A program made the translations under genes and the position numbers. Shown here piece after piece: positions 25,809 to 63,747 of a stretch of 64,000 nucleotides of DNA. The DNA comes from Escherichia coli 042 (GTDB lineage: Bacteria; Pseudomonadota; Gammaproteobacteria; Enterobacterales; Enterobacteriaceae): NCBI RefSeq assembly GCF_000027125.1, contig NC_017626.1; one strand, written 5' to 3'. Positions within the stretch are counted from its first letter, which is position 1; every line of letters starts with the position of its first letter. The notes beneath the pieces are model-generated. The model searched no databases and was not told where the DNA came from. It saw only the letters and a list, made by a program, of their open reading frames with translations.

Positions 25809-26266
25809 GTGTGATTAACGCTGGCCTGATTACTATCAAGCAACAAAACAATTAAGAGAGAACATTATAAATACTGGCAAAAATGCCCAAACAGGGGCAG
25901 GTTTTCGTTCAACCATAAAAAATTATGGCTGATGTTATTATTCAGTTCAAACCGTACGAACGAATTAATTGAACTAATAGCACTTCCGTTTTAAACGGAA
26001 ACGTACAATCGCATAGCTTAAACGACAAAAGAAATATGTTGCTTACGAATAAAACAAAGGCGACCGCAGAGGGTCGCCAGAAGGCATATATTAAACTTGA
26101 ATGCATCGCCAACAATGCCATATTTCCGGCTGGTGAGCAATGTGATTTGTGTGGTGGGCACACCTTCAACACATCCGACCACATGAGCAAGAAAACGGGA
26201 TATACTCACCAAATCCCTTATAAAACGGGGATCGGGATTACCACCCCGCTGGAGTTAACGGCGATA

Positions 26267-26290
26267 CAGACGCGCCACGCGTCTTTTTTT
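26267..26290 (+). terminator. candidate intrinsic terminator inside the alpA-icd gap
   Basis: cagacgcgccacgcgtc followed by T7 (GC stem gacgcg/cgcgtc, short loop), preceded by further stem-loops at 26058-26079 and 26226-26248. Confidence 0.5.
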
Positions 26291-26454
26291 GTATCGACGC
26301 ACACGCACGCCTTATCAATGGTGGGCTGTATGGGGCTGACTTCGGTCAGGCTGGTTTCCGTTAACACCAGTTGTGGTAACCCTGTACAGTCCACCGCCAG
26401 CGAGCTTACCACCTCCTGCGGTGGGTATATCCCAACGTTAACGGAGGCTGCCAA

Positions 26455-26860: not shown

Positions 26861-27148
26861 ATGAAAGCAAAAAATTCTGGCTTTACTGCCAGCGGTAAAA
26901 CTCGTCCTAAATTCATGCACGGCGATATTTACCGCGATAAATACGGCAGCACGGTAATGATTAAGGGCGTGAGTGAACGACGCATTACCTACCGCCGTGA
27001 AGGATACAAATATGACTGCGTGATGCCTGTTTATCAGTTCCAGCGTGATTTTACGCTGGTGGATCATCGTGAAACCGTAAATCAGAACCGTGCAGCAAGA
27101 TACATCCGCAAAATCTGCGAAATGATGGTTACTGGGGGCAAGAAATGA
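26861..27148 (+). CDS. hypothetical protein, translationally coupled to the primase gene
   Basis: 95-aa ORF whose TGA stop overlaps the ATG of the downstream 712-aa ORF (ATGA); basic protein; no recognisable domain. Confidence 0.4.
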   Translation: MKAKNSGFTASGKTRPKFMHGDIYRDKYGSTVMIKGVSERRITYRREGYKYDCVMPVYQFQRDFTLVDHRETVNQNRAARYIRKICEMMVTGGKK

Positions 27149-29283
27149 AACGCGCACCGAATTTAAAGCACCAGCCGAAAGACAAAATGACGGAGGTGAT
27201 TATCTTTGCGGGTAGTGATGCCTGGGCACATGCGAAAGAGTGGAGCGAATGGGCCGGAAAGCATATTGCGGCAGATGATACACATCCAGTTATTCTTGGA
27301 CCGGAACAACTGGCGAGTCTGGCAGACACGCAAATCATCGACAAAGGGCGCTATTACGTGCGCGTTTATCGTGCTGGTGAAATATCAGAGCAGCACCTTA
27401 CACAGATAGCGACACTGCTTGCAGTGGCGGGTGTGAAGGAGGCGCGTTGCTACCGCAGCTTTGTTGATCAGCAGCCGGAGGACTGGACACCGCGCATGGC
27501 TGGACTGAAGGATGATGCGGAACGCGGTAACAGTCTGGTGATCAACCTTCCGGCGAAGACAAATTTCACCGGAAATTATGATGACGAATTAAAGCCTCGT
27601 GTTGAAAGTCGCGTCGATGGTGTTTTCTGGGTAACGCCCAAAGTGGACAAGCAGTCAGGCGAAATTATCCGGCCTGAGACGTGGTTATGTTCTCCGCTTG
27701 AACTACTGGGAACAGGAACAATCGGCAAAGAGCATTACCGCGTGATGCGCTGGAAAAAACCAGCAAACCATGAGGTCATTACAATGGCGGTCCCGTGCGG
27801 AGGCATTGGTGACCGTGACGGCTGGCGGTTGCTGAAAGACCACGGCCTTAACGTGACGACCAACGGCAAATACAGGGCTATCCTGGCTGACTGGATGCAG
27901 TTAAGCGGAAACCATGAGGAATGGCAGTTAAGCACAACAACGGGGTGGCATTTTGGTGCGTACATCATGCCGGATGGTTCGATCATCGGTGAATCAGAGA
28001 AACCCATCCTGTTTACCGGAAAAACTGCCGCTGTTAATGGCTATTCCGTGGCGGGAACAGCGGAGGGCTGGCGCGATACCGTGGCACGGCTGGCTGGTGG
28101 TAATCCGTCCATGATGCTGGGTGTGGCGGTATCGCTATCTGCACCATTAATCGGGCTGGTGGGTGCTGACGGCTTCGGGGTTCATCTTTTTGAGCAATCA
28201 TCAGCAGGTAAAACCACCACACAGAACATTGCATCAAGTTTATGGGGAGAGCCGGACGCGCAACGGCTGACCTGGTACGGAACGGCGTTAGGTATCGCCA
28301 ACGAGGCCGAAGCACATAATGACGGGCTGTTACCCCTGGATGAAATAGGCCAGGCCGGAAACGCACGGGAAGTGTCCACGTCGGCTTATACGCTGTTTAA
28401 CGGTTCGGGGAAATTACAGGGGGCGAAGGACGGCGGCAACAGGGAGATAAAACACTGGCGAACAGTGGCAATCAGTACCGGAGAAATGGACGTTGAAACA
28501 TTCCTCAAAAGTGAGGGGATAAAAGTCAAGGCTGGGCAGCTTGTCCGGTTGCTTAACGTGCCGATGGAGAAGTCCACGCAGTTTCACGAATACAGCACAG
28601 GAAAGGCGCACGCAGACGCGTTAAAGGATGCCTGGACAGCAAATCACGGGGCGGCAGGTCGTGAGTGGATTAAATGGCTAGCAGCCCACCAACAGGAGGC
28701 TAAGGACACGGTAAGGGCATGCCGTGAACGGTGGCGCAACCTGATACCGGAGAGCTACGGCGAACAGGTTCACCGCGTAGGGGAACGATTCGCCATACTG
28801 GAGGCCGCGCTTGTGCTGTCAGGCAATGTTACGGGCTGGGATGTTCAGGCGTGCCGTGATGCCATTCAGCATAACTTTAATGCCTGGGTGAAGGAGTTCG
28901 GCACGGGTAACAAGGAACACAGGCAGATTATTGAACAGGCAGAGGCATTTCTTACTGCCTACGGCATGAGCAGGTTTGCGCCTGTCAATTATGACCCTGC
29001 AAGCCTGCCGATTTCAGAACTGTACGGCTACAGGGAAAGCGAGGGGCGTTACGGTGAGCCTGTTTTGTTTTACGTCCTGCCGGAGCCATTTAAATCGCAT
29101 GTGGCGAAGGGATTTAACAAGGATGCCGTAGCAAGAGCCCTTCACGAAGCCGGAATGCTGAAAAAGCCAGCCAGCGGGGAAGGATGGCAAATCAGAACAC
29201 CACGTCTTAAGCACATGAAGGGGGCACGACTAAGGGTGTACGGCCTTTTACTTGCACAGGATCATGATGATGAAGGTGGTTAA
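27145..29283 (+). CDS. primase/helicase-like replication initiation protein (P4 alpha-like; P-loop NTPase core)
   Basis: 712-aa ORF; central Walker A-like FEQSSAGKTTTQN followed by acidic DE-type motifs (LPLDEIG); the size and the iterons immediately downstream fit a satellite replication protein. An alternative start at 27187 (MTEVIIFAG) is possible. Confidence 0.65.
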   Translation: MKRAPNLKHQPKDKMTEVIIFAGSDAWAHAKEWSEWAGKHIAADDTHPVILGPEQLASLADTQIIDKGRYYVRVYRAGEISEQHLTQIATLLAVAGVKEARCYRSFVDQQPEDWTPRMAGLKDDAERGNSLVINLPAKTNFTGNYDDELKPRVESRVDGVFWVTPKVDKQSGEIIRPETWLCSPLELLGTGTIGKEHYRVMRWKKPANHEVITMAVPCGGIGDRDGWRLLKDHGLNVTTNGKYRAILADWMQLSGNHEEWQLSTTTGWHFGAYIMPDGSIIGESEKPILFTGKTAAVNGYSVAGTAEGWRDTVARLAGGNPSMMLGVAVSLSAPLIGLVGADGFGVHLFEQSSAGKTTTQNIASSLWGEPDAQRLTWYGTALGIANEAEAHNDGLLPLDEIGQAGNAREVSTSAYTLFNGSGKLQGAKDGGNREIKHWRTVAISTGEMDVETFLKSEGIKVKAGQLVRLLNVPMEKSTQFHEYSTGKAHADALKDAWTANHGAAGREWIKWLAAHQQEAKDTVRACRERWRNLIPESYGEQVHRVGERFAILEAALVLSGNVTGWDVQACRDAIQHNFNAWVKEFGTGNKEHRQIIEQAEAFLTAYGMSRFAPVNYDPASLPISELYGYRESEGRYGEPVLFYVLPEPFKSHVAKGFNKDAVARALHEAGMLKKPASGEGWQIRTPRLKHMKGARLRVYGLLLAQDHDDEGG

Positions 29284-29308
29284 TCTCTCGCGTGTAGGTT
29301 TAAAAACT

Positions 29309-29443
29309 CTTGTCCCACCTGTCCCAACCTGTGAGAAACACACATAACATACTGAATTATATTGGGTAATATCAGAAAAAGTGGGACAAGAGCGGGACAA
29401 GTTAAGGTGATTTTGGGACAAGTTAGGAGCATTTTGGGACAAG
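29309..29443. repeat. iteron cluster 1 (GGGACAAG repeats), putative origin of replication
   Basis: Inverted copies CTTGTCCC at 29309-29316 and ctgtccca at 29319-29326, an AT-rich spacer, then four direct GGGACAAG copies at 29383-29390, 29394-29401, 29415-29422 and 29436-29443; immediately downstream of the primase gene. Confidence 0.6.
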
Positions 29444-29519
29444 TCAGCAGGCGTTATTTTTTGCCTGGCTGGTGGACATTAAAAATCCAACCAACATTTA
29501 AAACCGGAGAGCAGACAAT

Positions 29520-30798: not shown

Positions 30799-30854
30799 TG
30801 GCAGTTCTGCATTATTTTTTGTGTTATTGAGTTGTAGAGCGTTTCAGGAGTTTT

Positions 30855-31064
30855 TTGAATCACATGAACGTTTCGCTGGTGGATATTCTTGACAAGTTGC
30901 AGCCAGGCCGACGCGTGCCAGCTCGCCGCAGTGCCTGGCATCTTCCGTACATCGTCTTTCTCGAACGGCGCGGAAACGATTTGATTGCGTTGAATCCCGT
31001 CACAAAGGATAGCGTTACGCTATCTCCTGAGAGTCTACTAGCCACAGACTGGGAGTACTGCTAA
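30855..31064 (+). CDS. hypothetical protein
   Basis: 69-aa ORF with a CAGGAG ribosome-binding-like site upstream; last ORF before the ~0.9 kb non-coding iteron region; no recognisable motif. Confidence 0.3.
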   Translation: MNHMNVSLVDILDKLQPGRRVPARRSAWHLPYIVFLERRGNDLIALNPVTKDSVTLSPESLLATDWEYC

Positions 31065-31597
31065 ACACAAACGCATCGAGGGTGCTGGCGTGTTGCCAGC
31101 CCCACCCCCTCCGAAATGATCCCCCAAAAAGTGCAAAATGATCCCCCATTAACGAACAGAAAACAAACAAAGAGCAACAAATAATCATTATTTACAATTC
31201 TTGACAAAAACACCCCCTATTTATAACCCTACCAAATTTAAAATTACATCTACAAAACAATAAGTTACAAAATCAGCAACGGATCATTTCGGAAAAAACG
31301 GTTAGTCCCTTTTTCGAAAAGGGATCATTTTGTTGCTTAAACTCATATGCGGATTACATATCAATACGCTAGTGATAGCCGTTCTGGAATGCCACAGAAA
31401 CGCGCTGTAATCGATTCTGGCGCAATTAGCTGTGCTAGGTAATGATTTACCTATCTGGGGATGTTGCGCACGTCTGGATTGCGTTACCACCGAAGATTGT
31501 GCGCATATGGTGGCTGTTACGGTGGCCTCCCGACAACGCAAAATTGCGGCGGCACAGTCGGTTTACCGCGCTAACACGGCTTGATTCACTCGCTCGA

Positions 31598-31717
31598 CTT
31601 GTCCCACCTCCCCCCCCAACTTGTCCCAAAACAGCCTAGACTTGTCCCACCTTACCTAATTTATTTCTAACAAAATCAATTTGTTAGGTGCTGGTGGGAC
31701 AGGTGGGACGGGTGGGA
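31598..31717. repeat. iteron cluster 2 (CTTGTCCC x3 and GGTGGGAC x3 flanking an AT-rich spacer), putative second cis-replication site
   Basis: CTTGTCCC at 31598-31605, 31618-31625 and 31640-31647; inverted GGTGGGAC(A/G)G at 31692-31699, 31701-31708 and 31710-31717; followed by (TA)n at 31729-31740. Confidence 0.6.
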
Positions 31718-31998
31718 CGGGTGGTTTTGTATATATATATACGAAAAATTGCATTCAGGAGGGGGGCGAAATTCCTGCAATCCATTACTTATGGAACTGT
31801 CCGCCCCGTCAAATTTTTACGCCCGCGCAATTAAAAAAATGCGTCACGCAGGTGGGCATGATGCCGATATGCTTGTCGGGTTCAGCTTTTTAAGGCGGCT
31901 GTAGATGTCAGGTTATCCGTGCTCATCCACCAGCCAGCTTCATAGCGGATAGCCGGAAAATGGTAACGGTTAAAGCTGTACATTTTTGCAGCAAATCA

Positions 31999-32023
31999 TT
32001 TTAGTTATACGTTTAGATATACG
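31999..32023. repeat. right boundary direct repeat (putative attR)
   Basis: ttttagttatacgtttagatatacg, 23 of 25 identical to 24034-24058. Confidence 0.5.
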
Positions 32024-32103
32024 ATTTCAAAACTCAATTAATCTACATCTTTAAAATCATGCAGTTACAGAATCAATTAAACTACTCTCGTGGCCAAAAA
32101 TCC

Positions 32104-60702: not shown

Positions 60703-60897
<195 letters not shown>

Positions 60898-60902
<5 letters not shown>

Positions 60903-63747
60903 ATTCCCGCGATTTCCTGACCCTCTCGGCATATACCGTCAGCGTCTGTTTTATCACATCCAGCGTTACCGGCTTCGACAGGCAGCTGTCCATACCGGAC
61001 TCCAGACACCGCTGCTTCTCTTCAGCCAACGCATTAGCAGTTACTCCGATTACCGGCAACGTCAGTCCCAACTGACGAATGCGTTGCGTCAAGCGGTAAC
61101 CATCCATATTTGGCATGTTGACGTCGCTAAGCACGATATCAATATGATTCTTGCTAAGTACATTAAGCGCATCGACGCCATCATTCGCGGTTTTACATTG
61201 ATAGCCCAACGATCCCAACTGATCTGCCAGCAGACGTCGGTTAATCGGATGATCATCCACGACCAGAATCATCATATCGTCATTATCGCTGACCGCTTTG
61301 TCCGTCGACGGCAGAGCGTTAGCAGGATCGTCGCTCTCCATCTCGATCAAATAAATACGCGCCAACAATGCCGGTAGCTCATGCGGAGCAGCCACACTGT
61401 GTACCCACTCTCCTGGCGCTTTCTCCAGCGGAATACCAATATGTCGACGACAGAAGGTCACTACCGCTCTGCCCTGCCATTTTTTACTCACTACCTCGTC
61501 AGTGATTAACACATCTTCGGGAGTCGGTTCCTGCCCTTCGTATGTTGTTACGACGATGCCGCTGCGCTGCAAACTGTTTTCCAGGAACTGACAGAGCGAC
61601 GCATTGCGGACCGCCAGCCAGCAGCGTTTACCACTCAACCCTTCCACGCCTTTTTTCTGCGGGTACTGAGCGCCGTACAACGGAATACGCACGGTAAACT
61701 GGCTGCCCATTCCCGGTTCTGAATCTACCGAGATATCGCCGTCCATCATGCTGATCAGTTTTTCACAAATCGCCAGACCCAGACCGGTCCCCTGGAAGTT
61801 TCGCTGTACGCCCGTTCCGACCTGGAAGAAGGGATCAAACAAGCGCACCACTTCTTTCGCCGGAATCCCCACGCCGGTATCGCGAACACGGATAGAGAGA
61901 TAATCGCCATCAGCGCGAACATGTAGAACTATACAGCCGGTATCGGTGAATTTTATGGCGTTACTCAACAGATTGGAGATGACCTGCTGTAAACGCATCG
62001 GGTCGCCATTTAAGGCCACTGGCACATCCGGTTCAATAAAGCAGTACAAGCCTAGCTGCTTGCGTACCACCAGCGGTAAATAGTTGGCGGTGATGTGGTT
62101 CATCACTTCACGCGGTGAAAACTCACGCGGTTCGATCTTCAACTGTTCCGATTCAATCTTCGAGAAATCGAGAATATCGCTGATAATTTTCAACAACAGG
62201 CTGGAAGAGTTGTTCATTGCCGTCACCAGACGATCGACGCCTTTCGGTAACTCTTTGGTTTGCAAAAGATCCAGGTTACCGATAATGCCATACAGCGGCG
62301 TTCGCAGCTCATGACTGACGGTGGCAAGGAACATCGATTTTGACTGGCTCGCCTGTTCCGCTGCTTGTGCCATCTCCTGCAACGACTCTTCCATCTTCAC
62401 GCGCGAAGAAACATCCACCAGCACACAAATGGCCACGTTTTCATTACGATAGCGCGAATGGACGAAGCTGATTTGCAGATTGGTATTGTTGCTGGTCAGG
62501 ACATCAACAAAATTGACCTGCTGCCCACAGATAATTTGTGTCAGCCGTTGGCGGTCCTCATGCGTAAGCATATTGAGATAGGTATGCGCCAGTTCGTTAC
62601 TTAAAATATTGACGCCATCAGCGGTACGCAAAATGCAGATACCCACTGGCGCGGAGGCGACAATCTTGCGATTAAACTGCTCATGTTCTTCCAGTCGCAA
62701 GGCGTCGCTTTCCGCCGGAATGAAAATACGCCGCTCGTACATCCGCGCGAGAGTAAACAATGCAGCTCCGGCAAGCACATTCAGCAAAATTGCGTTAAGG
62801 ATCAACATGCGAATGCGTTCCAGCACCTTATCAACCGGCACCGAATACACGATGCTTAGCGATGAGGGTGGCAGATTTTTCTTCAGCACCAGCTCCCGGA
62901 ACCCTTCCGTATAGCCAAACCAGGAGCGTTCCTGCATCCAGCGAGGATCGCCCTTAATTTTGCTTTCTGGTCCGGTAAGCGAAATCAGGGTATGACCATT
63001 TTCATCAAGAATGGTAACCCCCATCGGCAACGTACCAGGTAAGAAAAAGTTCTCCATCCGGATGGTCTGCTCGACACCCAAAAGCGCCTGCAACCGGTTC
63101 GCCAGATAAACTGGCGTCAACGCGTAAAAATACCCGACGCCAGGGCGCGGACCTTCGCTGATCCAGTAGAGGTTACTGCCGCTATCATCTTGTGGTGCAT
63201 TTCGATATTTATTGATGCGTTCATGCAACGCTTTCAACGCGGTATCGCGTTCCACTGGCATATCACGCAGACCGAAATTGGCCATGCAGAGGTTATCGCT
63301 GCCGATTAAAAATACCCGGTTGAGATCGTAAGCTGCAGAGAAATTATCGCGCCAGTAGCGCATAAACCACGCCAATGACTCCAGAGAGCCTCGCCAGGTG
63401 TTACTCATTGCGGAACAATCGGAGTCGGCAAACAGCGGTTCAAACGCAGGCACATCCGCCTGCGTTTCTCGTCCACGCGGGGAAAGCACACCGTTTTCTG
63501 CCGATAAGCGATTTTCGGCGATGTACTTCAGCTCTTTCATCACATCAGAGGTGCGTTGAATAAAGCGCTGAGCCTGATCGGAACTCAGATTAAATTCCTG
63601 ACGAATTTCCGATTCTCGCTGATGTAACGCATTAACGATGTAAAAAACGGATGAAAAAGCAATCAACAGCCAGAGCACTAACGCCAATGCTCTGAACATG
63701 TAGCGCGAGGCTTTCAGGGTTGTACGAAAAGAAGCAAGGTATTTCAA
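60898..63747 (-). CDS. rcsC: hybrid sensor histidine kinase RcsC
   Basis: 949 aa; two TM segments; HisKA region with the H-box (VSHELRTPL); HATPase; C-terminal receiver domain. Confidence 0.95.

What the first reader, a model, noticed from the sequence alone, without database searches (positions are those of the whole stretch)
31100..31340. Duplicated AAATGATCCCCCA motif and a strong palindromic hairpin in the island tail
gaaatgatccccca and aaaatgatcccccat occur about 22 bp apart (around 31113-31150). At around 31303-31335, gttagtccctttttcgaaaagggatcatt contains the palindromic hairpin tcccttttt-cg-aaaaggga, preceded by a copy of gatcatttcg that is inverted relative to cgaaaagggatcatt. These look like protein-binding or small RNA/terminator elements rather than random sequence, but no function can be assigned.
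Basis: seen in the sequence. Interest (0 to 1): 0.3.

Follow-up and report, generated by a model that had tools for sequence, protein, structure and literature searches.

The report
Orphan origin-like repeat module in satellite
The flagged motifs are four copies of one 9-base protein-binding-type repeat arranged head-to-head around an AT-rich core, the layout used by replication origins of phage-parasitic islands, sitting in the non-coding tail of a small 8 kb E. coli satellite island; the "strong hairpin" is mostly a by-product of one repeat copy and is not conserved.

Summary
AAATGATCC occurs four times in 217 bp: 31114 and 31136 on the + strand, 31281 and 31322 on the - strand. About 0.66 copies are expected in the whole 64 kb. 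The copies flank a 131-bp core of 27.5% GC. It is the only 9-mer in the window with this 2+2 inverted layout.

The element lies in the roughly 1 kb non-coding tail of an 8.2 kb PICI-like phage satellite. The island is inserted at tRNA-Pro between yejM and yejO. It encodes int, alpA, an icd-like gene with a C4 RNA, a DUF927 primase-helicase, ssb, ProQ/FinO and PerC. Its cos site (31758-31837) matches that of phage phiP27.

"Two iteron sets flanking an AT-rich region" is the published signature of PICI replication origins. However, this island's own Rep-type iterons are GTCCCA (29302-29445 and 31596-31723), and that iteron type covaries with the Rep clade in 80 related loci. None of 160 related islands has AAATGATCC.

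My best reading, at about 0.4, is an accessory or orphan origin-type iteron module with an unknown binding protein. The hairpin (-9.5 kcal/mol here) is disrupted in 10 of 14 haplotypes, while the repeat copies stay nearly invariant. No function is shown. Interest is low to moderate.

The parts
31111..31125 (+). Repeat copy 1 (TCCGAAATGATCCCCC; core AAATGATCC 31114-31122; contains GATC 31118)
   Evidence: core invariant in 14 of 14 haplotypes
31133..31147 (+). Repeat copy 2 (GCAAAATGATCCCCC; core 31136-31144; GATC 31140), 22 bp after copy 1
   Evidence: one variant (GATC>GCTC) in 2 of 14 haplotypes
31150..31280 (.). AT-rich, strand-asymmetric core between the two repeat pairs (27.5% GC; A66 C29 G7 T29). 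The left half, 31150-31213, is hypervariable with AAAC-unit indels. TTGACA (31201-31206) and CCCCTATTTATAACCC (31214-31229) are invariant.
31281..31292 (-). Repeat copy 3 (reads CCGAAATGATCC on the - strand; core 31281-31289; GATC 31282)
   Evidence: one variant at the last core base in 2 of 14 haplotypes
31305..31325 (+). Palindromic hairpin GTCCCTTTT-TCG-AAAAGGGAT followed by CATTTTGTTG. Its 3' arm overlaps repeat copy 4. It is specific to certain haplotypes.
   Evidence: terminator-like; -9.5 kcal/mol here, -4.9 to -5.2 in variants; perfect in 4 of 14
31320..31333 (-). Repeat copy 4 (reads CAAAATGATCCCTT on the - strand; core 31322-31330; GATC 31323), 41 bp after copy 3
   Evidence: core invariant in 14 of 14 haplotypes
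31330..31410 (+). Small ORF (TTG start, 26 aa, LLKLICGLHINTLVIAVLECHRNAL, hydrophobic) immediately after the hairpin. A GGGA Shine-Dalgarno-like sequence lies in the hairpin 3' arm. Status uncertain.
   Evidence: identical peptide in 8 of 8 sequences with two synonymous changes, while all other tail ORFs are broken in some haplotypes. No Pfam or NCBIfam match.
30855..31064 (+). orf69, the last gene before the module. It is an orphan found only with this module.
   Evidence: no homologue outside this island in 1.84 billion representatives; small beta-barrel model, no structural match
29302..29445 (.). Context: Rep-proximal origin sub-module 1 (GTCCCA x2 on +, AT-rich core, TGGGAC x4 on -), directly 3' of the DUF927 primase-helicase gene (27145-29283)
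   Evidence: this iteron type covaries with the Rep clade in 80 loci
31596..31752 (.). Context: origin sub-module 2 (CTTGTCCCA x3 spaced 22 and 21 bp, AT-rich core with an IHF consensus at 31674, GTGGGAC x3 spaced 9 bp) plus the conserved TTTTGTATATATATATACGAAAAAT element
31758..31837 (+). Context: cos site of the island, homologous to the annotated cos-site region of Stx2e phage phiP27
   Evidence: E = 9e-8, feature 'cos-site'; alignment
31999..32023 (+). Context: probable integrase arm-type repeats (TTTAGTTATACG TTTAGATATACG), also present next to attL at 24035-24090
   Evidence: family D2. Assignment to the integrase is inference.
32085..32100 (+). Context: right island boundary (attR); genomes without the island resume matching here
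   Evidence: tRNA-Pro(GGG) at 23837-23913

Best explanation
The element at 31111-31333 is an origin-type iteron module. It has four copies of a 9-13 bp recognition sequence (TCCGAAATGATCC / CAAAATGATCCC). Two point rightward and two leftward, spaced 22 and 41 bp (about 2 and 4 helical turns). They bracket a 131-bp AT-rich, easily melted core.

Proposed mechanism (inferred, not shown): a sequence-specific initiator-type DNA-binding protein occupies the two repeat pairs, bends or loops the DNA, and destabilises or organises the core. This is what PICI and SaPI Rep proteins do at their origins.

The island's own DUF927 primase-helicase is associated with a different iteron (GTCCCA). The module is therefore most likely an accessory or orphan origin sub-module acquired by recombination. 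It would be used by an initiator the island does not obviously encode, or it may be no longer used.

The palindromic hairpin is largely a by-product of repeat copy 4 plus a fortuitously complementary upstream flank. It is not the functional unit.
For: Shown:
- The four-copy 2+2 inverted family is far beyond chance and unique in the window.
- The core is 27.5% GC, among the most AT-rich 60-bp windows of the island.
- The same architecture occurs twice more in this island with GTCCCA iterons. It also occurs directly 3' of rep in 79 of 80 related islands, with clade-specific iterons.
- Fillol-Salom et al. 2018 (PMC6092414, Fig. [quoted passage not shown]
- Repeat cores are nearly invariant (2 of 36 variable positions) while the core's left half is hypervariable in sequence, with AAAC indels. 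That pattern fits a region where composition matters more than sequence.
- Related PICIs do carry origin sub-modules of a foreign Rep clade. TTGCGGGTTA sits before cos in L127 and L203, whose own rep-proximal iterons are GGGACA and GTCTAC. So mosaic or orphan origin modules are a feature of this family.
- In unrelated IMG/VR phages, AAATGATCC(C) arrays with 21-27 bp spacing lie inside ORFs of about 170-365 aa. I read these as O-like initiator genes from their N-terminal sequences, without a family search. Other arrays lie next to AT-rich DNA.
Against: - No binding protein is identified.
- The module is 1.83 kb from the rep gene, not directly 3' of it.
- Its iteron does not match the Rep-associated GTCCCA.
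- It lacks the TTTTGTATATATA...GAAAAA element that ends canonical origins of this family.
- No AAATGATCC cluster is found in 160 related islands, in phiP27, or in a P27-terminase prophage of an island-bearing strain.
- Apart from the same island in E. albertii, no enterobacterial genome among 100,044 species representatives has it.
- Only two copies per side and a 131-bp core differ from the 3+3 copies and 40-75 bp cores of the canonical sub-modules.
- The conservation contrast is only suggestive (Fisher p = 0.08). All copies are 92% or more identical, so conservation could reflect recent spread.
Confidence: 0.4

Rival explanations
1. The module is a transcription control region. The repeats are operator sites for a regulator from the host, the island (PerC, AlpA, orf69) or the helper. 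They would control a rightward transcript that begins at or within the module and carries the 26-aa hydrophobic ORF (31330-31410). The hairpin would sequester the ORF's GGGA Shine-Dalgarno sequence, giving a type-I-toxin-like small-peptide locus.
For: - A sigma-70-like TTGCCA-16-AATGAT lies at 31093-31120, overlapping copy 1.
- A perfect TTGACA at 31201 and the downstream CCCCTATTTATAACCC are invariant, while the 8 bp between them vary in sequence but not in length.
- The 26-aa ORF is the only tail ORF intact in all sequences, and both of its substitutions are synonymous.
- The peptide is strongly hydrophobic (my calculation).
- The Shine-Dalgarno-like GGGA lies 5 nt upstream of the TTG start and inside the hairpin 3' arm.
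Against: - TTGACA has no acceptable -10 at 16-18 bp; the best is TATAAC at 15 bp.
- The promoter scan finds no more sites than shuffles do (2 found versus 3.2 expected).
- The start codon is TTG, and no terminator follows the ORF.
- The ORF has no Pfam or NCBIfam family, and no Rfam toxin or antitoxin RNA matches.
- The sequestering hairpin is broken in 10 of 14 haplotypes.
- No further copies of the repeat lie near any island promoter.
- Two synonymous changes are weak evidence.
Confidence: 0.15
2. The module is a docking site for a helper-phage-encoded protein: a helper replication initiator (origin piracy), a helper factor that times satellite induction, or a methylation-sensitive (Dam/SeqA) binding site. 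All four GATC sites of the tail lie inside the repeats.
For: - The island has a phiP27-type cos and no packaging genes, so it depends entirely on a helper.
- The only GATCs in 30800-32100 are the four in the repeats.
- phiP27, and a P27-terminase prophage in island-bearing strain EC1722-1, both carry CAAAACATGATCCG next to the iterons inside the gene I take to be their replication initiator. That identification rests on gene position and on the iterons lying inside the gene; the genes are annotated only as HTH proteins. The sequence shares ATGATCC and an A-rich 5' flank with the island repeat.
- AAATGATCC-type arrays sit in putative initiator genes of unrelated phages.
Against: - The shared core is only 7 bp with a 1-nt register difference. 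The main iterons of those phages are different (TGACCC.TCA.AATCTG).
- No AAATGATCC cluster occurs in either candidate helper or in any E. coli-like IMG/VR contig.
- Any 9-mer may be an iteron somewhere in 2.9 million viral contigs, so those hits may be coincidence.
Confidence: 0.15
3. The hairpin is an intrinsic terminator, either for the rightward island operon or as the 3' end of a small RNA. The repeats would be incidental or part of that RNA.
For: - The scan calls the site terminator-like: 9 pairs, then CATTTTGTTG.
- The hairpin is -9.5 kcal/mol with z = -2.3 in this window.
- It is the first such site after the last gene.
- A ProQ/FinO-family RNA chaperone is encoded 0.8 kb upstream.
Against: - The stem is disrupted, without compensation, by two independent substitutions in 10 of 14 haplotypes, dropping to about -5 kcal/mol with z about 0.
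- The U-tract is interrupted and starts 3 nt after the stem.
- There is no Rfam hit.
- Whole-transcript folds are marginal.
- The two variants inside the repeats have no compensatory partner.
- Related PICIs have ProQ/FinO but lack this element.
Confidence: 0.1
4. The module is a non-functional relic: a decaying fragment of another element's origin or regulatory region, carried along with orf69. It looks conserved only because all known copies diverged recently.
For: - The distribution is narrow: 67 of 5,426 E. coli genomes plus E. albertii, all 92% or more identical and always single-copy.
- No cognate protein was found.
- The neighbour orf69 is an orphan.
- IS66 insertions next to the module are tolerated in two strains.
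- One GATC core is lost in 2 of 14 haplotypes.
Against: - The repeat cores are about three times less variable than the surrounding 200 bp, even though a hypervariable stretch lies between them.
- Helical phasing and the inverted 2+2 order are intact in all 14 haplotypes.
Confidence: 0.2

Closest known systems
Replication origins of phage-inducible chromosomal islands (PICI/SaPI ori; Fillol-Salom et al. 2018, PMC6092414; SaPI ori from my own knowledge of Ubeda et al. 2007)
   Same: Both have two sets of short iterons in opposite orientation flanking an AT-rich putative melting region. Both sit in an int-alpA-pri/rep island with unidirectional genes. The iteron spacing of about 21-22 bp matches one arm of the canonical sub-modules.
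   Different: - The module is not directly 3' of rep; it lies 1.83 kb away, after ssb, proQ/finO, perC and orf69.
- Its iteron is unrelated to the Rep-clade-specific GTCCCA.
- It has 2+2 rather than 3+3 or more copies.
- Its core is 131 bp rather than about 40-75 bp.
- It lacks the terminal TTTTGTATATATA..GAAAAA element.
- No cognate initiator is known.
Satellite phage P4 ori / crr (alpha-protein type I repeats at two distant loci; my own knowledge, and mentioned in PMC6092414)
   Same: It is a small helper-dependent satellite with a primase-helicase and more than one cis-acting repeat cluster, kilobases apart. This island's two GTCCCA clusters, 2.15 kb apart, resemble the ori plus crr arrangement.
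   Different: In P4 both loci carry the same repeat, bound by the same protein. The AAATGATCC module is a third cluster with a different repeat. The cos type also differs: phiP27-like, not P2-like.
Lambdoid phage origins (iterons bound by O-type initiators, followed by an AT-rich region, inside the initiator gene)
   Same: Both combine short repeats containing an ATCC(C) core, phased by about 2 helical turns, with adjacent AT-rich DNA. AAATGATCC arrays occur inside ORFs I read as O-like in unrelated metagenomic phages. The ori regions of phiP27 and an e14-like prophage contain CAAAACATGATCCG.
   Different: The module is intergenic, with inverted rather than tandem arrangement. No O-type gene is in the island. 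The candidate helpers' main iterons are different.
Dam/GATC-dependent epigenetic switches (pap, agn43, gtr/opvAB; my own knowledge)
   Same: Several GATC sites are embedded in repeated regulator-binding boxes, in two groups about 100-150 bp apart.
   Different: No Lrp or OxyR motif was recognised by eye (not formally scanned). There is no adjacent regulated operon. The conserved flanks (AAAT..CC) imply a different, unknown binder.
Rho-independent terminators / ProQ-FinO-bound small RNAs
   Same: In this window the stem-loop has a trailing U-rich run, and a ProQ/FinO-family gene lies nearby.
   Different: The stem is not conserved in most haplotypes. No Rfam family matches.

Membership tests
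PICI/SaPI-type replication origin | [quoted passage not shown] | tested here: met
   Copies lie at 31114+, 31136+ and 31281-, 31322-. The core 31150-31280 is 27.5% GC. The feature is as described in PMC6092414.
PICI/SaPI-type replication origin | Located immediately 3' of the replication initiator (pri-rep) gene | tested here: not met
   The rep gene ends at 29283. The module starts at 31111, after ssb, proQ/finO, perC and orf69. The position 3' of rep is occupied by the GTCCCA module.
PICI/SaPI-type replication origin | Iteron sequence is cognate to the island's Rep and covaries with the Rep clade | tested here: not met
   In 80 loci with DUF927 Rep relatives, the rep-proximal iteron tracks the Rep clade (GTCCCA, TTGCGGGTTA, TGAACCA, GGGTTAC, GGGATAA). 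None of these loci, nor 80 loci of a second primase family, has AAATGATCC clusters.
PICI/SaPI-type replication origin | Supports initiator-dependent replication | not testable with these tools
   This needs a plasmid-maintenance or 2D-gel assay like the one in PMC6092414, Fig. 2b.
Intrinsic (Rho-independent) terminator | Stable G+C-containing stem-loop followed by a U-tract | tested here: inconclusive
   Met in this window (-9.5 kcal/mol), but the tract CAUUUUGUUG is interrupted.
Intrinsic (Rho-independent) terminator | Stem maintained in homologous copies | tested here: not met
   31307 C>G (9 of 14 haplotypes) and 31308 C>A (1 of 14) break pairs without compensation. The variants fold at -4.9 to -5.2 kcal/mol with z about 0.
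Known small RNA / cis-regulatory RNA family (Rfam 15) | Covariance-model match | tested here: not met
   No match at E <= 1 in 31000-31700. The only island hits above the gathering score, apart from the flanking tRNA-Pro, are C4 and isrK at 26213-26401.
cos packaging site | Homology to a helper phage cos region | tested here: not met
   The island's cos is elsewhere, at 31758-31837, and matches the annotated phiP27 cos-site. P2 and lambda cosN searches were negative in the island.
Type I toxin-antitoxin locus | Small hydrophobic toxin ORF of a known family, with an antisense or complementary small RNA | tested here: inconclusive
   A conserved 26-aa hydrophobic ORF exists. However, it matches no Pfam, NCBIfam or Rfam family, and an antitoxin RNA cannot be tested here.
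MITE / IS-derived element | Multiple copies per genome with terminal inverted repeats | tested here: not met
   Exactly one place per genome in all 67 genomes.
Phage-inducible chromosomal island (the host element) | int + alpA + pri-rep with ori 3' of rep, unidirectional genes, tRNA or att-specific insertion, helper cos or pac site, no structural or lysis genes | tested here: met
   Helper-dependent induction and transfer were not tested. With no capsid or terminase genes, my judgement is that it would fall into the incomplete 'type C' class that PMC11773190 applies to EcCIMP1.

The most novel reading that the evidence does not exclude
The module is a working second origin with a specificity different from the island's own Rep. 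A minimal satellite with no packaging genes would then carry an 'orphan' origin so that an initiator it does not encode can replicate it. That initiator could come from a helper phage or from a co-resident satellite. The module could also titrate that initiator as a form of interference.

Related PICIs (STEC316, Rb-3) carry an origin sub-module of a foreign Rep clade right next to cos. This hints that cross-specific origin carriage may be a general, undescribed strategy in this family.
Probability: 0.15. Interest if true: 0.6.

Novelty: new member of a known kind. Interest (0 to 1): 0.3.

Why it matters
If the module is a functional origin-type site, this 8 kb island carries cis elements for more than one initiator specificity. 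Satellites of this family could then be replicated, or sabotaged, by proteins of other mobile elements in the same cell. That would add a layer to satellite-helper-satellite conflict.

Practically, the work gives a complete cis-element map of a very small cos-type satellite: attL/attR, integrase arm repeats, a split GTCCCA origin, a phiP27-type cos, and the extra AAATGATCC module. It also shows that a locally 'strong' hairpin can be an accident of a repeat copy.

As it stands, the finding is a well-defined but functionally unassigned repeat module in a narrowly distributed island.

Tried and rejected
- **cos site:** P2 and lambda cosN searches were negative in the island. The true cos is at 31758-31837.
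- **Known RNA:** Rfam at E <= 1 finds nothing in the region. RNA folds of both strands are marginal.
- **Homology to phages or plasmids:** none for the module.
- **Literature:** a search for the sequence string found only unrelated primers. The supplements of PMC6092414 hold no iteron sequences.
- **Regulator with sites elsewhere in the island (AlpA, integrase):** there are no further copies with one mismatch or fewer outside the module. The integrase arm-type repeats are a different sequence.
- **MITE:** rejected, because there is one copy per genome.
- **Sigma-70 promoter:** hexamer spacing does not fit, and the scan is not above shuffles.
- **DnaA boxes:** none.
- **Cognate Rep:** 80 DUF927-Rep loci and 80 loci of a second primase family show clade-specific iterons but never AAATGATCC.
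- **Helper-phage origin:**
  - phiP27 and an e14-like P27-terminase prophage from an island-bearing strain lack the cluster.
  - Three IMG/VR pattern scans gave no E. coli-like contig.
- **Wider distribution:** the genome-contig scan found only the same island in E. albertii among enterobacteria.
- **orf69 as the binding protein:**
  - There are no homologues beyond the island.
  - There is no Pfam, NCBIfam or PDB sequence match.
  - The AF2 model (pLDDT 70) is a small beta-barrel with no significant structural match.
  - I recalled a resemblance to DUF2829, but no test supported it.
- **Other tail ORFs:** these, including the RefSeq-annotated 50-aa ORF at 31432-31584, are frameshifted or stopped in other haplotypes.
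- **Long-range RNA pairing between repeat copies:** the two natural variants have no compensatory partner.

Full report
**What is in the sequence**

The two AAATGATCCCCCA copies lie at 31113-31126 and 31135-31149. The palindrome TCCCTTTT-TCG-AAAAGGGA lies at 31306-31324. These are not separate features. The 9-mer AAATGATCC occurs exactly four times within 217 bp: 31114 (+), 31136 (+), 31281 (-) and 31322 (-). Only 0.66 copies are expected in the entire 64 kb.

Copies 1 and 3 share the longer form TCCGAAATGATCC. Copies 2 and 4 share CAAAATGATCCC. Spacings are 22 bp on the left and 41 bp on the right, about two and four helical turns.

Between the pairs lies a 131-bp core (31150-31280) of 27.5% GC. 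Its top strand is strongly A+C-rich (A66 C29 G7 T29). The only GATC sites in 30800-32100 are the four inside the repeats.

An exhaustive k-mer scan shows AAATGATCC is the only 9-mer in the window with at least two copies on each strand within 300 bp. Markov controls gave none. At k = 8 and 7 the only other island hits are the two GTCCCA(C) modules of the same island.

**Where it sits**

The region is the non-coding tail of an 8.2 kb island inserted at tRNA-Pro(GGG) (23837-23913), between yejM and yejO. Genomes without the island resume matching at about 32085.

A 99% identical copy in strain PKF11, together with family searches, gives the gene list:
- integrase and AlpA
- an ash pseudogene and an Icd-like gene
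- DUF4222
- a 712-aa DUF927 primase-helicase (27145-29283)
- SSB, a ProQ/FinO-family protein and PerC
- an orphan 69-aa ORF (30855-31064)

Rfam finds isrK and a C4 antisense RNA at 26213-26401.

The island has no capsid, terminase or lysis genes. It is a PICI-like satellite of the incomplete kind discussed for EcCIMP1 (PMC11773190). Its tail at 31758-31837 matches the annotated cos-site region of Stx2e phage phiP27 (E = 9e-8). The island is therefore a cos-type satellite whose helper presumably has a P27-family terminase. The flagged element is not the cos site.

**The island's own origin**

GTCCCA repeats form two further 'iterons / AT-rich core / inverted iterons' modules. One lies directly 3' of the rep gene (29302-29445). 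The other lies at 31596-31723, followed by TTTTGTATATATATATACGAAAAAT and then cos.

In 80 IMG/VR loci encoding DUF927 Rep relatives, the module directly 3' of rep changes with the Rep clade:

| Rep identity to this island | Iteron 3' of rep |
|---|---|
| 83-93% | (C/T)GTCCCA |
| 75-79% | TTGCGGGTTA |
| 62-66% | TGAACCA |
| other clades | GGGTTAC, GGGATAA |

In these loci the full canonical origin consists of two such sub-modules ending in the TATATA element.

GTCCCA is therefore the iteron associated with this island's Rep clade, by covariation rather than by a binding test. Here its two sub-modules are split by ssb, proQ, perC, orf69 and the AAATGATCC module, which recalls P4 ori/crr.

Two related E. 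coli PICIs, STEC316 (L127) and Rb-3 (L203), carry a TTGCGGGTTA sub-module before the same cos. Their own rep-proximal iterons are GGGACA and GTCTAC. Origin modules of foreign specificity do therefore occur in this family.

**What the AAATGATCC module most likely is**

Its layout is the one Fillol-Salom et al. [quoted passage not shown]

Across 14 distinct haplotypes (13 E. coli and 1 E. albertii, 92-99% identical):
- The four 9-mer cores show 2 variable positions of 36, against 37 of 205 in the rest of 31100-31340 (Fisher p = 0.08).
- The left half of the core is the most variable stretch of the whole tail, including AAAC-unit indels.

Conserved binding sites with a composition-constrained spacer is what an origin-type module predicts. 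I therefore read it as an accessory or orphan origin-type iteron module bound by an unidentified sequence-specific protein. Confidence is about 0.4.

The steps 'protein binds the four sites' and 'the core is melted or organised' are inference. Nothing functional is shown.

**What argues against full membership**

- The module is 1.83 kb from rep.
- Its repeat differs from the Rep-associated iteron.
- It has 2+2 copies and a long core.
- It lacks the TATATA terminal element.
- No AAATGATCC cluster exists in 160 related islands of two Rep families.
- None exists in phiP27, or in an e14-like P27-terminase prophage of island-bearing strain EC1722-1.
- None exists in any E. coli-like IMG/VR contig.
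- Among 100,044 species genomes, the only enterobacterial hit is the same island in E. albertii.

The element occurs in 67 of 5,426 complete E. coli genomes. It is always single-copy and always next to orf69.

**The hairpin**

In this window the hairpin is stable (-9.5 kcal/mol, z = -2.3) and terminator-like. However, its 5' arm carries 31307 C>G in 9 of 14 haplotypes and 31308 C>A in another. Neither change is compensated, and stability falls to about -5 kcal/mol (z about 0). Only 4 of 14 haplotypes keep the palindrome.

The 3' arm is conserved because it is repeat copy 4. The hairpin is thus not a conserved structural element. A role as terminator or small-RNA 3' end is unlikely (0.1).

**Other readings kept open**

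- **Promoter/operator region for a rightward transcript (0.15).** This transcript would encode a 26-aa hydrophobic peptide (31330-31410). That ORF is the only tail ORF intact in all sequences, and its two substitutions are synonymous. Against this, the promoter geometry is poor, the start codon is TTG, and no known family matches.
- **Helper-protein or Dam/SeqA-sensitive site (0.15).** This is suggested by the GATC cores. It is also suggested by CAAAACATGATCCG next to the iterons inside the putative initiator genes of phiP27 and the e14-like prophage. The shared core is only 7 bp.
- **Relic preserved by recent spread (0.2).**

**Verdict**

The 'hairpin / small RNA / terminator' guess is not.

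The element is a new example of a known architecture, the PICI-type iteron / AT-rich module. Its repeat is new and its binding partner is unknown. Interest is low to moderate unless it proves to be a working origin of foreign specificity.

Noticed in passing
window 31758-31837: The island's cos site is about 80% identical to the annotated cos-site region of Stx2e phage phiP27. The core is CCGCCCCGTCAAATTTTTAC(G/A)CCCGCG(C/A)AATTAAAAA. This points to a helper with a P27-family terminase for an island that has no packaging genes.
   Followed up: yes
window 29302-29445 and 31596-31752; loci L239-L318: The GTCCCA origin is split into two sub-modules 2.15 kb apart, which recalls P4 ori/crr. In 80 related loci the iteron 3' of rep covaries with the Rep clade (GTCCCA, TTGCGGGTTA, TGAACCA, GGGTTAC, GGGATAA). 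All complete origins end in TTTTGTATATATA..CG.GAAAAA.
   Followed up: yes
L127 13680-13867; L203 12840-13027: Two related E. coli PICIs carry, just before the same phiP27-type cos, an origin sub-module with TTGCGGGTTA iterons. That iteron belongs to a different DUF927 Rep clade than their own (GGGACA and GTCTAC). These are mosaic or 'foreign' origin modules. Both islands also encode a DUF1441 protein, so a packaging role for this module is not excluded.
   Followed up: partly
window 26213-26401: Rfam finds isrK (52.9 bits) and C4 antisense RNA (77.7 bits) in tandem, upstream of the Icd-like gene. This is a P1/P7 immI-type (c4-icd) regulatory cassette inside a PICI-like island.
   Followed up: no
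window 30855-31064: orf69 is intact in all copies but has no homologue outside this island in 1.84 billion representative proteins; the only outside signal is a PHROG match (phrog_7206, E = 1.3e-6). The AF2 model (pLDDT 70) is a small beta-barrel with no significant PDB match.
   Followed up: yes
window 31330-31410: A 26-aa hydrophobic ORF (TTG start) is the only tail ORF conserved in all haplotypes, and both of its substitutions are synonymous. It could be a small membrane peptide or type-I-toxin-like gene.
   Followed up: partly
window 31432-31584: The 50-aa 'hypothetical protein' annotated here by RefSeq (WP_001384688.1) is frameshifted in other haplotypes and is probably not a gene.
   Followed up: yes
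L405 about 543-556 (window about 31342); L125 / L130: IS66-family elements have inserted in the island tail in at least two strains, one immediately after repeat copy 4. Strain 214-4's island is further degraded by IS30 and IS3.
   Followed up: no
L129 10813-10856; L399 10632-10650: phiP27 and an e14-like P27-terminase prophage share the element CAAAACATGATCCG right after the iterons inside the gene I take to be their replication initiator (annotated only as an HTH protein). It has a GATC and resembles the island repeat over 7 bp.
   Followed up: partly
window 23944-23981: A perfect 14-bp inverted repeat, AAAAAAGCCCGCTA / TAGCGGGCTTTTTT, lies just downstream of tRNA-Pro. It looks like a bidirectional terminator at the attL side of the island.
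   Followed up: no
window 60709-60868 and 63471-63489: The ATCTGGC inverted clusters look like REP/BIME-type repeats in the rcsD-rcsB-rcsC-atoS region. The 16-of-19 match to the P2 cos sequence lies in that same core-genome region and is a chance match.
   Followed up: yes
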